Assembly (NCBI GenBank): GCA_964549735.1
Contig: CAZJWO010000004.1
Span: 1 to 62,225, forward strand
DNA from: an uncultured Fibrobacteraceae bacterium
GTDB taxonomy: Bacteria; Krumholzibacteriota; Krumholzibacteriia; LZORAL124-64-63
Direction: 5' to 3'
Length of the DNA stretch: 62,225 nt
Shown: piece after piece, positions 22,851 through 24,987 of the stretch
Layout: every line of letters starts with the position of its first letter
Position numbering within the stretch: position 1 is the first letter of the stretch
Translations under genes and position numbers: made by a program
The notes under the pieces: model-generated
Told to the model about the DNA's origin: nothing
Databases searched by the model: none
Seen by the model: only the letters and a program-made list of their open reading frames with translations

Positions 22851-22854
<4 letters not shown>
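21796..22854 (-). CDS. D-Ala-D-Ala ligase-like ATP-grasp enzyme (1)
   Basis: 'MKIGLCYDLR', 'VFNIAEG', 'FAKPVAEGTGKG', 'ERYLPGREFTVG', 'GRIDLR', 'IELNPLAGL'; ATGA overlap with the kamA-family stop. Confidence 0.88.
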
Positions 22855-24191
<1,337 letters not shown>

Positions 24192-24367
24192 GGTTCACCT
24201 CCACGGAACTGTTGCCTGTGGGGCCCGCTGACGCGAGAGCTTCGGACGCTGGCTGGCGTGCTCGCGCGAGAGCGGTTCGGCGGGCCACCCCCGCCGATGC
24301 CGGCCGACTGTCCTCGAAAGCCCCGCCGCCCGGGAGCGTTTCCCGGCCGGGTTCTTCCGTGGTGGCG
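24192..24367 (-). ncRNA. Candidate cis-regulatory structured leader (riboswitch-like) of the kamA operon
   Basis: 5' CCACGGAA (24362-24355) is complementary to UUCCGUGG (24208-24201), which overlaps the GGAGG SD; internal hairpins at 24330-24346 and 24277-24297. No Rfam class recognised by eye. Confidence 0.45.
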
Positions 24368-24372
24368 GCGTG

Positions 24373-24400
24373 AATGTATGCGGAATGCGGGCCATGTCAA
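24373..24400 (-). promoter_or_regulatory. Sigma70-type promoter for the kamA operon
   Basis: Minus strand TTGACA (24400-24395), 16 bp, TACATT (24378-24373). Confidence 0.6.
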
Positions 24401-24471
24401 CAGGTATGCTGCGGTGGGGCGCAATATTTTTACGGCAATCGGTTTTCACCGGGGCCGGCCCGTCCGGTCCG

Positions 24472-24987
24472 CTAGACGATGACGACCGGATCATCGACCG
24501 CGACGAGGTCGCAGAGGGCGACGATGTCGTCGCGCCGCAGGCGCACGCAGCCATGGCTGCACGGCTCTCCGATGCGGTTTTCGTGGTTGGTGCCGTGCAG
24601 GTAGATGAAGCGGGAGCGCGAGTCGACGCCCGGACCGCGGTTGATCCCGTCCTGGCAGCCCTCGAGCGTCAGCACGCGGCCGAGGATCAGGTCGCGCGCG
24701 TCGGCGCGACCGTCCCAGACCTCGCCGGTGGGACGGCGGCTCACGAAGATGGTGTCCGGGCTGGCACCACTGCCAATTTTCTGGGCGATGCGGTGCACGC
24801 CGGGCGGCGTGCCGCCGCTGTCCTGGCGGGCGTCCAGGCCGGCGGCGGCCGTCGACACCGGCCACGCGGCCAGGATCTGCCGGCCGTTCAGCAGAAAGGT
24901 CCGCTGGACGGCGGTGTCCACCAGGAGCCAACGCTCGGGCGTACGTCCGAGCAAGGTCAGCGCTTGTTGCAACGCCTCGTTCCGCAT
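24472..24987 (-). CDS. L,D-transpeptidase (YkuD) family protein
   Basis: 'LLVDTAVQR', 'GTPPGVHRI', 'FIYLHGTNHE...SHGCVRL' (HxxxxxSHGC catalytic motif). Confidence 0.88.
   Translation of the reverse strand: MRNEALQQALTLLGRTPERWLLVDTAVQRTFLLNGRQILAAWPVSTAAAGLDARQDSGGTPPGVHRIAQKIGSGASPDTIFVSRRPTGEVWDGRADARDLILGRVLTLEGCQDGINRGPGVDSRSRFIYLHGTNHENRIGEPCSHGCVRLRRDDIVALCDLVAVDDPVVIV

What the first reader, a model, noticed from the sequence alone, without database searches (positions are those of the whole stretch)
24192..24400. Riboswitch-like ~175-nt leader whose 5' end sequesters the kamA Shine-Dalgarno
Seen on the minus strand: a TTGACA-16-TACATT promoter places the start near 24366. The first transcribed bases CCACCACGGAA can pair with UUCCGUGGAGG at the 3' end (8 contiguous bp plus 2 after a mismatch), masking GGAGG just before the ATG. 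Inside are hairpins CCGGGA-aacgc-UCCCGG and UCGGCGGG-ggugg-CCCGCCGA, and a duplicated motif CCGAA(cc)GCUCUCGCG (plus-strand CGCGAGAGC at 24232-24240 and 24265-24273). Inference: a multi-stem junction closed by an SD-blocking P1 is typical of translational riboswitches. I could not match it by eye to lysine, SAM, c-di-AMP or cobalamin consensus features, so it may be a new motif sensing lysine, an osmotic signal or a pathway product.
Basis: partly seen in the sequence, partly recalled or inferred. Interest (0 to 1): 0.65.

Follow-up and report, generated by a model that had tools for sequence, protein, structure and literature searches.

The report
Conserved structured leader before kamA operon
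The stretch in front of a beta-lysine (lysine 2,3-aminomutase) operon of an uncultured Krumholzibacteriota bacterium is a real, strongly conserved, folded mRNA leader. It matches no described RNA family and probably switches translation on and off, but its signal is unknown and it occurs in only two genera.

Summary
A single sigma-70-like promoter (TTGACA-16-TACATT, 24400-24373, minus strand) precedes a ~175-nt leader. Its first bases (24365-24355) are complementary to the Shine-Dalgarno region (24208-24198) of kamA.

The promoter and leader accompany the orthologous kamA in every genome of the genus that has it (6 of 6, and 0 of 3 without it) and in one sister genus. They were found in no other genome among 208 of the phylum, and before none of 68 other kamA genes.

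The 5' 100 nt are 82-97% identical within the genus, while kamA third codon positions are only 56-70% identical. Hairpin 2 (24297-24277) has several independent compensatory changes. Hairpin 1 and stem P5 have fewer. No Rfam family matches.

The same 5' strand pairs at least as consistently with an invariant CUUUCG (24320-24315), and its CCACC fits the GGUGG loop of hairpin 2.

Best reading: a new, lineage-restricted regulatory leader in which a 5' sensor fold and SD masking exclude each other. Whether a metabolite, a protein or temperature drives it is open. There is no transcription start data and no ligand evidence.

The parts
24395..24400 (-). -35 hexamer TTGACA
   Evidence: Only promoter-like site in 24100-24600. 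It is kept in the homologous leaders (TTGACA in most; TTGACT in L003, TGGACA in L109) and in further metagenome contigs (TGTCAA in the loose ends).
24373..24378 (-). -10 hexamer TACATT (16-nt spacer). The predicted transcription start is near 24366.
   Evidence: The variants are TACATT, TAGATT and TACGTT at the same distance. The start is inferred from geometry only; there are no RNA data.
24354..24366 (-). 5' segment GCCACCACGGAAG, invariant in the genus, with three possible partners: (a) the SD region; (b) CUUUCG; (c) the GGUGG loop of hairpin 2.
   Evidence: Invariant in 11 genus sequences. No variant appears here in 8 metagenome runs.
24322..24351 (-). Domain 1, hairpin 1: CCGGGA-AACGC-UCCCGG (24346-24330), flanked by CCCG (24351-24348) and CGGG (24325-24322).
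   Evidence: The loop varies in sequence and in length (4-7 nt, including a GCGA tetraloop in L104). L109 changes G-C to U-A in the stem. The flanking helix has C-G to G-C (L002) and C-G to U-A (L114) but is broken in L109.
24315..24320 (-). Invariant CUUUCG, which pairs with CGGAAG (24359-24354) to close domain 1 (helix P1'). It is also a weak anti-SD (CUUUC:GGAGG through G-U pairs).
   Evidence: Invariant in all 14 sequences. P1' is paired in 98.8% of cells. In the sister genus GGAAG becomes GAAGG and pairing is kept through swapped G-U/A-U pairs. Domain 1 folded alone gives this helix in 4 of 5 variants.
24304..24317 (-). Small hairpin P3: UCGA-GGACAG-UCGG. It competes with P1' for UCG.
   Evidence: 87.5% paired. 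L114 has UCGG-GAGA-CCGA. The evidence is weak.
24277..24297 (-). Hairpin 2: UCGGCGGG-GGUGG-CCCGCCGA.
   Evidence: 98.2% paired. Three pairs change on both sides: U-A/C-G (8:6), G-C/A-U, and C-G/U-A/U-G. There are also G-U variants, giving at least 4 independent events. This is the best-supported helix.
24232..24266 (-). Stem P5: CGCGAG (24266-24261) with CUCGCG (24237-24232), enclosing a variable insert with a conserved GCCAGCC.
   Evidence: 79.8% paired, with three pairs changed on both sides (C-G to U-A in L107, L085 and L005). The alignment of this fast-evolving half is uncertain.
24198..24208 (-). UUCCGUGGAGG: the 3' strand of the SD-masking helix. The SD GGAGG is at 24202-24198.
   Evidence: Inverted repeat I2. 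It is in the MFE fold. Forcing this helix gives the MFE or near-MFE fold in the genus, mostly 8-14 kcal/mol below folds with the SD free (4-5 kcal/mol in L085 and L109).
22851..24191 (-). kamA (lysine 2,3-aminomutase family, 446 aa), first gene of the regulated operon.
   Evidence: Pfam LAM_C 1.1e-21 and Radical_SAM 3.7e-10. It is followed by two Ddl-like ATP-grasp genes, an HDAC-domain gene, a GNAT gene and a Mur-ligase gene.

Best explanation
The stretch is the promoter plus a roughly 175-nt cis-acting regulatory leader RNA of the kamA operon (kamA, two Ddl-like ATP-grasp ligases, an HDAC-domain protein, GNAT, a MurC-like ligase). It gates translation initiation by alternative pairing of its 5' segment.

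Proposed working:
1. As the RNA is made, the first ~56 nt fold into domain 1. This is hairpin 1 closed by CGGAAG:CUUUCG.
2. The free 5' tail GCCACC can dock on the GGUGG(C) loop of hairpin 2.
3. In this state the Shine-Dalgarno sequence is free (ON).
4. Once the SD region is transcribed, the thermodynamically favoured fold instead pairs the same 5' segment (CCACCACGGAA) with UUCCGUGGAGG. This dissolves the closing helix of domain 1 and masks the SD (OFF).
5. An effector that stabilises the 5' fold would keep translation on. I judge a small molecule (a riboswitch-like ON switch) the likeliest effector, but this is unproven.

Shown:
- the promoter and leader are conserved;
- the leader is exclusively linked to orthologous kamA;
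- purifying selection on the 5' 100 nt is stronger than on the coding sequence;
- hairpin 2 has covariation, with lesser support for hairpin 1 and P5;
- both competing pairings exist.

Inferred: the transcription start, the switching itself, its direction, and the nature of the effector.
For: **Linkage and distribution**
- The leader is found once per genome, always directly upstream of orthologous kamA. Six of 6 genus genomes with the orthologue have it, and 0 of 3 without.
- One sister-genus genome has it too.
- The neighbouring upstream gene differs between loci while promoter, leader and kamA stay together.

**Selection**
- Core identity to the window is 82-97% in the genus. Whole kamA DNA is 72-83% identical and third codon positions 56-70%.
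- The 3' half drifts (38-79% identity), yet leader length stays at 159-163 nt from CCACC to GGAG.
- In 8 metagenome runs all differences fall in loops or the variable half. None falls in the 5' segment or in CUUUCG.

**Structure**
- Overall 90.9-93% of cells pair, against 34-52% when partners are slid.
- 15-16 cells changed on both sides, against about 5 in shuffles, 0 of 500 reaching the observed value.
- Hairpin 2 carries at least 4 independent compensatory events.
- Indels of 1-3 nt in loops exclude a conserved reading frame.

**Switch**
- The 5' end is the best SD partner in 9 of 11 genus sequences.
- The SD-masked fold is the MFE or near-MFE in the genus.
- Domain 1 alone folds with CGGAAG:CUUUCG. 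The two pairings share nucleotides and cannot coexist.

**Precedent and novelty**
- Riboswitches do control lysine 2,3-aminomutase genes: the tandem Na+-I and c-di-AMP riboswitches before ablA in Dehalobacter (PMC9337991).
- No Rfam family matches.
Against: - There is no transcription start or expression data. If transcription began downstream of 24355, both 5' pairings would fall.
- Only 13 distinct sequences from two genera exist. A brute-force scan shows the two-clade split alone creates many spurious 'covarying' column pairs, so only hairpin 2 is really secure.
- The SD-masking helix is weak in L005 and L002 and absent in the sister genus. There the predicted fold keeps the CUUUCG helix and masks the SD with another segment, so mutual exclusion is not conserved.
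- The tail-loop contact never varies within the genus and is not alignable in the sister genus.
- The single-sequence fold is only z = -2.
- A distribution limited to two genera is narrow for a metabolite riboswitch.
- High G+C content makes alternative helices easy to find.
Confidence: 0.4

Rival explanations
1. The leader is a protein-binding site. A trans-acting RNA-binding protein recognises the conserved single-stranded motifs and represses or activates translation at the SD. Candidates are CsrA, or a product of the operon acting in autoregulation. The stems merely present the sites.
For: - Sequence, not only structure, is strongly conserved in the 5' 100 nt, as in ribosomal-protein leaders.
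- Two GGA motifs lie at the two ends: ACGGAAG at the 5' end and GUGGAGG at the SD.
- The genome encodes CsrA (80 bits, above the Pfam cut-off).
- A narrow, lineage-specific distribution fits co-evolution with a protein.
Against: - The 5' GGA is inside a predicted helix rather than a hairpin loop.
- One sister-genus variant (L114) has GGU in its place.
- No protein partner is indicated by gene context.
- CsrA sites alone would not explain the invariance of roughly 100 nt or the compensatory changes in hairpin 2.
Confidence: 0.25
2. There is no dedicated effector. The leader is a constitutive or physical-signal element. It could be an RNA thermometer or salt-sensitive SD-masking structure, or a throttle and stability element that simply sets a low translation rate for the operon.
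For: - SD masking is the thermodynamically favoured state.
- Other Krumholzibacteria kamA genes carry a different, shorter leader that also ends in an SD-masking hairpin, CGGCCUC...GGAGGUCG. Masking itself is therefore the recurrent theme.
- CUUUC:GGAGG pairing through G-U pairs recalls fourU-type thermometers.
- Beta-lysine derivatives are osmolytes whose genes respond to salt (PMC9337991).
Against: - Thermometers and throttles usually conserve pairing, not roughly 100 nt of sequence including loops and junctions.
- The most conserved part is the 5' domain, not the SD-masking strand.
- The masking helix (-17.5 kcal/mol duplex, G+C-rich) is far stronger than known thermometer stems.
- No Rfam ROSE or FourU match.
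Confidence: 0.15
3. The conserved 5' box is mainly a DNA element: an operator or an extended promoter and initially transcribed region bound by a transcription factor. The helices downstream are incidental G+C-rich hairpins.
For: - The most invariant bases start right at the -10 box (CACGCCGCCACCACGG).
- A similar CGC(C/G)CCAC box follows the -10 in other Krumholzibacteria kamA promoters with otherwise different leaders (L004, L006).
- CCCGGCCGGG is a 10-nt palindrome that stays palindromic in L002 (GCCGGCCGGC).
Against: - Conservation extends about 100 nt downstream of the start, too long for an operator.
- Hairpin 2 shows compensatory changes that keep RNA pairing, including G-U pairs, which have no meaning in duplex DNA.
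- Loop lengths vary while stems are kept.
Confidence: 0.08

Closest known systems
Translational ON riboswitches of the add adenine type (Vibrio vulnificus add; purine family RF00167). Comparison from general knowledge.
   Same: The SD is masked by pairing with nucleotides that are also needed for the closing helix of a 5' sensor fold, so the sensor fold and SD masking exclude each other. Control is purely translational, with no terminator.
   Different: There is no sequence or structure match to the purine or any other Rfam aptamer. The ligand is unknown. Here the very 5' end of the transcript is the anti-SD strand, about 150 nt from the SD, with two further stems (hairpin 2 and P5) in between. 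The switching is inferred, not shown.
Riboswitch-controlled lysine 2,3-aminomutase genes: the tandem Na+-I (DUF1646 motif) and c-di-AMP (ydaO) riboswitches before ablA of Dehalobacter sp. CF (PMC9337991), and the lysine riboswitch before kamA catabolic operons in some Firmicutes (recalled from Rodionov et al. 2003, not re-read).
   Same: The same kind of gene (lysine to beta-lysine) is under control of a structured leader RNA.
   Different: Those act by transcription termination and belong to known families. This leader has no terminator and matches none of those families.
Lineage-specific leaders of kamA plus two Ddl-like ligase operons noted earlier in this scan (Omnitrophota e1-998718, e1-1042715; Synergistales e1-2079566). 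These are AI notes, not verified here.
   Same: The same operon core (kamA plus two Ddl-like ATP-grasp genes) lies behind a conserved promoter-leader cassette that matches no described RNA family.
   Different: Those cassettes were read as terminator and mini-ORF attenuators, or as an 80-nt duplicated leader. This one has no terminator and no conserved mini-ORF, and works (if at all) through SD masking. No sequence similarity was detected between the leader types.
SD-masking RNA thermometers (ROSE, fourU)
   Same: Several hairpins in a leader with the SD paired. CUUUC can pair with GGAGG through G-U pairs.
   Different: There is far stronger sequence conservation and a much more stable masking helix. 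The masking is long-range (5' end to SD) rather than a local hairpin. No Rfam match.

Membership tests
Lysine riboswitch (L-box, RF00168) | Match to the five-helix junction covariance model | tested here: not met
   No hit at the gathering score in the window. No hit up to E=10 in 24100-24500 with permissive filters, nor in nine homologous loci.
c-di-AMP (ydaO, RF00379) and Na+-I (DUF1646 motif) riboswitches known before ablA/kamA | Match to the family covariance model, followed by an intrinsic terminator as expression platform | tested here: not met
   No Rfam hit. No terminator-like site in 24100-24600.
SAM (I-VI), cobalamin and T-box leaders | Match to the respective Rfam covariance models | tested here: not met
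   The same Rfam scans cover all 4227 families. The only listing was RF_site1 at E=4 and 14.9 bits against a gathering score of 40, which is a chance match.
Riboswitch (generic) | Conserved multi-stem fold supported by covariation | tested here: inconclusive
   Hairpin 2 is well supported. Hairpin 1, its flanking helix and P5 are partly supported. With only 13 sequences in two clades a formal covariation test is not possible, and spurious covariation is abundant.
Riboswitch (generic) | Highly conserved nucleotides outside helices, and constant association with one gene family | tested here: met
   Invariant CUUUCG, GCCACCACGGAAG, the GGUGG loop and GGC(C/A)GGCA. The core is more conserved than the kamA coding DNA. 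The element sits upstream of orthologous kamA only.
Riboswitch (generic) | Expression platform whose pairing excludes the sensor fold | tested here: inconclusive
   This is true in the own genus, where the SD strand and CUUUCG compete for 24359-24354. It is not conserved in the sister genus.
Riboswitch (generic) | Direct, selective ligand binding by the RNA | not testable with these tools
   Needs in-line probing, SHAPE or ITC.
CsrA-regulated leader | Two or more A(N)GGA sites, one overlapping the SD, typically in hairpin loops, with CsrA present in the organism | tested here: inconclusive
   GGA occurs at 24357-24355 and in the SD, and a CsrA gene is present. However, the 5' site lies in a predicted helix and is GGU in L114.
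RNA thermometer (ROSE / fourU) | Local SD hairpin with weak or mismatched pairs, low sequence conservation, and an Rfam ROSE or FourU match | tested here: not met
   No Rfam hit. The masking helix is long-range and strong (-17.5 kcal/mol). Sequence conservation is high.
Leader-peptide attenuator | Conserved short reading frame with a start codon and SD, followed by a terminator | tested here: not met
   The window's leader has no AUG. The AUG/UUG about 25 nt before the kamA start in some relatives differs in frame and is absent in the window. There are 1-2-nt indels throughout and no terminator.

The most novel reading that the evidence does not exclude
The 5' 100 nt are the aptamer of an undescribed riboswitch class confined to a Krumholzibacteria lineage. 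The aptamer would be domain 1 closed by CGGAAG:CUUUCG, hairpin 2, and a 5'-tail/loop pseudoknot GCCACC:GGUGGC. It would bind lysine, beta-lysine or the operon's end product (or an ion or osmotic signal). By holding the 5' strand it would keep the SD free, giving a translational ON switch for an uncharacterised beta-lysine/ATP-grasp/Mur-ligase pathway.
Probability: 0.3. Interest if true: 0.7.

Novelty: new variant of a known kind. Interest (0 to 1): 0.5.

Why it matters
The kamA plus two Ddl-like ligase operon is widespread in uncultured phyla, and its product is unknown. It could be a beta-lysine peptide, an osmolyte or an envelope component.

A leader under stronger purifying selection than the enzyme gene says the pathway is tightly regulated after transcription starts. 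The effector of that leader would be a direct clue to what the pathway makes or responds to.

If the effector is a small molecule, this would be a new riboswitch class with an unusual layout, in which the transcript's own 5' end is the anti-SD strand.

The practical limits are serious. The organism is uncultured, the element occurs in only two genera, and there are no expression data. For now it is a well-founded candidate, not a discovery.

Tried and rejected
- **Rfam.** A gathering scan of the window, a permissive scan of 24100-24500 and a permissive scan of nine homologous loci found nothing. The RF_site1 hit (E=4) is chance.
- **More members.** The core covariance model R1 found only the 7 training genomes among 208 of the phylum. 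It found nothing before 68 other kamA loci. A metagenome pattern scan gave mostly identical copies, one truncated new variant (L104) and one chance hit in a coding region (L102). Twelve contig look-ups added five full-length variants plus L118, whose 5' part differs.
- **Domain 1 search.** nhmmer with domain 1 against all kamA upstream regions detected no homology to the other leader types.
- **RNAalifold's long-range helix** GCGG:CCGC and its GCU:GGC helix are rejected. They are broken in the new variants L109, L114 and L002.
- **Brute-force listing of covarying column pairs** was too noisy to use. The two-clade split yields many false pairs.
- **RNA-seq.** No run holds the stretch, so there is no start-site evidence.
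- **Coding explanations.** The long ORFs across the leader (24195-24554 and 24155-24424 on the minus strand, 24129-24482 on the plus strand) are rejected, because 1-3-nt indels in the alignment break every frame. A conserved mini-ORF is rejected for the same reason.
- **T-box idea** (AAG codon, CCA-like 5' end, GGUGG loop). It has no model match and no Stem I architecture.
- **SD masking in the sister genus.** Duplex searches gave several G+C-rich alternatives and no clear answer.

Full report
**What is there**

On the minus strand the window reads TTGACA (24400-24395), a 16-nt spacer, then TACATT (24378-24373). A 175-nt untranslated stretch follows, then GGAGG (24202-24198) and the ATG of a 446-aa KamA-family radical-SAM protein at 24191.

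- The promoter scan finds this one site in 24100-24600, with 0.0 expected from shuffles, and finds no terminator.
These are the 11-nt 5'-end/SD complement (24355-24365 with 24198-24208, 91%), hairpin 1, hairpin 2 (8 bp perfect) and the direct repeat containing CGCGAGAGC twice.
- The SD-masking helix is part of the minimum-free-energy fold (-93.1 kcal/mol). That fold is only z = -1.99 against shuffles, so a single sequence proves little.
- The genes behind kamA are two Ddl-like ATP-grasp ligases, an HDAC-domain protein, a GNAT and a Mur-ligase homologue.

**Where else it occurs**

The organism is a Candidatus Krumholzibacteriota MAG.

- The leader DNA is found upstream of kamA in five other genomes of the same genus and in one genome of a sister genus.
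- A covariance model of the 5' 98 nt (R1) finds exactly one copy in each of these seven genomes. It finds none in the other 201 genomes of the phylum, and none before 68 kamA genes of other lineages.
- Within the genus the six genomes that have the orthologous kamA (at least 70% identity) all have the leader. The three genomes without the leader carry no orthologue: two have only paralogues of about 50% identity and one has no KamA match.
- The window's own genome has two further KamA paralogues without the leader.
- A metagenome pattern scan and twelve contig look-ups added variants. The total is 13 distinct full leaders plus one truncated copy.
- The gene upstream differs between loci (YkuD in some, unrelated or divergent genes in others). 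The promoter-leader-kamA unit is constant.
- Parts of the leader occur in about 20 metagenome runs from wastewater, sludge, sediment, lake and soil.

**Selection**

| Region compared with the window (within the genus) | Identity |
|---|---|
| First 100 nt of the leader | 82-97% |
| kamA DNA overall | 72-83% |
| kamA third codon positions | 56-70% |
| 3' half of the leader | 38-79% |

- The 3' half of the leader drifts at about the neutral rate.
- The distance from CCACC to GGAG nevertheless stays at 159-163 nt.
- In eight metagenome runs every difference lies in the loop of hairpin 1, the loop of P3, the two known compensatory positions of hairpin 2, or the variable half. None lies in the 5' segment, the domain-1 stems or CUUUCG.
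- The 5' 100 nt are therefore under purifying selection stronger than that on the enzyme's coding sequence.
- Indels of 1-3 nt in the loops rule out a conserved reading frame on either strand.

**Structure**

On the 14-row alignment A5 I counted pairs for three hand-built models.

| Helix | Cells paired | Comparative support |
|---|---|---|
| Hairpin 2 (24297-24277) | 98.2% | Changes on both sides at three pairs (U-A/C-G 8:6, G-C/A-U, C-G/U-A/U-G) plus G-U variants; at least four independent events |
| Hairpin 1 (24346-24330) | 93% | Loop of 4-7 nt that varies freely; one G-C to U-A change |
| Flanking helix CCCG:CGGG | 92.9% | Two compensatory changes (L002, L114), but broken in L109 |
| Stem P5 (24266-24261 with 24237-24232) | 79.8% | Three pairs with double changes; lies in the poorly alignable half |

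- Hairpin 2 is the one secure helix.
- P5 explains the 'duplicated motif'. The two copies are largely its two strands around the palindrome CTCGCGCGAG.
- For the whole models, 15-16 cells changed on both sides against about 5 in shuffles (0 of 500 reach the observed value). Pairing drops from 91-93% to 32-52% when partners are slid.
- A brute-force search shows the split into two clades alone makes many false covarying pairs. These statistics should therefore be read cautiously.
- Two long-range helices proposed by RNAalifold on the first seven sequences are broken in the newer variants and were dropped.

**The 5' segment and the SD**

The segment GCCACCACGGAAG (24366-24354) is invariant in the genus and has three possible partners.

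1. **The SD region UUCCGUGGAGG.**
   - It is paired in 90.8% of cells.
   - It is the best partner of the SD segment in 9 of 11 genus sequences, at -13 to -17.5 kcal/mol.
   - Forcing it gives the MFE or near-MFE fold, mostly 8-14 kcal/mol below folds with a free SD.
   - Changes on the SD side (L005, L002, L109, L085) weaken it and are never compensated.
   - In the sister genus it is essentially gone, at -5.7 and -3.7 kcal/mol.
2. **The invariant CUUUCG (24320-24315).**
   - CGGAAG:CUUUCG is paired in 98.8% of cells.
   - In the sister genus GGAAG has become GAAGG, which keeps all six pairs by swapping a G-U and an A-U.
   - The first 56-58 nt folded alone give this helix in 4 of 5 variants.
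   - In L118, whose domain 1 is replaced by a different hairpin (possibly a contig-end artefact), CGAGA:UUUCG can still close it.
3. **The loop of hairpin 2.**
   - GCCACC is a perfect complement of GGUGGC, whereas it pairs with GGAGG only across an A-A mismatch.
   - This contact never varies in the genus, so it is untested.
   - In the sister genus the loop differs, but GGUGG(A/G)G lies in the 5' strand of the same hairpin opposite a 5' CCCCACC.

Partners 1 and 2 share nucleotides 24359-24355 and cannot coexist.

**Mechanism proposed**

Domain 1 with the CUUUCG helix forms first during transcription, perhaps tied to hairpin 2 by the 5' tail, and leaves the SD free. The more stable full-length fold moves the 5' strand onto the SD region and blocks initiation. 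An effector that stabilises the 5' fold would turn translation on.

This is the logic of translational ON riboswitches such as the add adenine riboswitch (comparison from general knowledge). The switching, its direction and the effector are inferences.

Riboswitch control of lysine 2,3-aminomutase genes has precedent in the tandem Na+-I and c-di-AMP riboswitches before ablA of Dehalobacter (PMC9337991). This leader matches neither those families nor any other Rfam family.

**Rivals**

- **Protein-bound leader.** This fits the strong sequence conservation and the narrow distribution. The genome encodes CsrA, and GGA motifs sit at the 5' end and in the SD. However, the 5' motif lies in a helix and is GGU in one variant.
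- **Thermometer or constitutive throttle.** This fits the recurrent SD masking. Other Krumholzibacteria kamA genes carry a different, roughly 90-nt leader ending in a local SD hairpin. It does not explain the invariance of about 100 nt.
- **DNA operator.** This could explain the box next to the -10, but not compensatory changes that use G-U pairs.

**Limits**

There is no transcription start, no expression data and no ligand test. Only 13 sequences from two genera are available, and the high G+C content offers many alternative helices.

**Verdict**

The element is a new, lineage-restricted, structured regulatory leader, a new variant of a known kind. It is a reasonable but unproven riboswitch candidate.

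Noticed in passing
window 24090-24116 (-), KamA residues 26-34 (SDQSDEPPV): The roughly 65-residue N-terminal extension of KamA is poorly conserved except for one motif, [QK]E[VA]xS[DE]xS-D[DE]PP. The motif is nearly invariant in all 19 Krumholzibacteria KamA homologues compared, whichever leader type they have. The window's extension has four Pro-Pro pairs. Because beta-lysine modifies EF-P in some bacteria, a link to Pro-Pro stalling is conceivable but untested.
   Followed up: partly
L007:2838-2938, L008:2886-2986, L009, L010, L011 (upstream of kamA): Other Krumholzibacteria kamA genes carry a different conserved leader of about 90 nt: TTGACA-N17-TACTTT, then a long hairpin with a GGGAAUCAUCCC tip, then a local SD-masking hairpin CGGCCUC...GGAGGUCG. 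A Latescibacterota locus (L019) shares its GCAACUCGC(A/G)AGG start. No sequence homology to the window's leader could be shown.
   Followed up: partly
P0008, P0009 (relatives of window 22851-24191): NCBI's annotation calls KamA in close relatives as 380 aa, starting about 63 codons downstream. The upstream ATG/GTG with its GGAGG, and the first residues MxxGPQxVRK, are conserved. The longer product is therefore the better call.
   Followed up: yes
L118:1-80: One metagenome contig has the 3' 110 nt of the leader, but its domain 1 is replaced by an unrelated perfect 7-bp hairpin (CGUAUCC...GGAUACG). CGAGA:UUUCG can still close that hairpin, and no promoter is visible. The contig ends 17 nt further upstream, so an assembly chimera cannot be excluded.
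   Followed up: partly
G000:C7:14175-15422 and G000:C56:13015-14052: The same genome has two more KamA-family paralogues (48% and 39% identity) that lack this leader. The first reads through one TGA.
   Followed up: no
window 24472-24987 (-): A 171-aa YkuD (L,D-transpeptidase) gene lies directly upstream on the same strand. It is the neighbour in only some homologous loci (L106, L109, L112, L119, L104) and not in others (L108, L111, L114). It is therefore not part of the conserved unit.
   Followed up: yes
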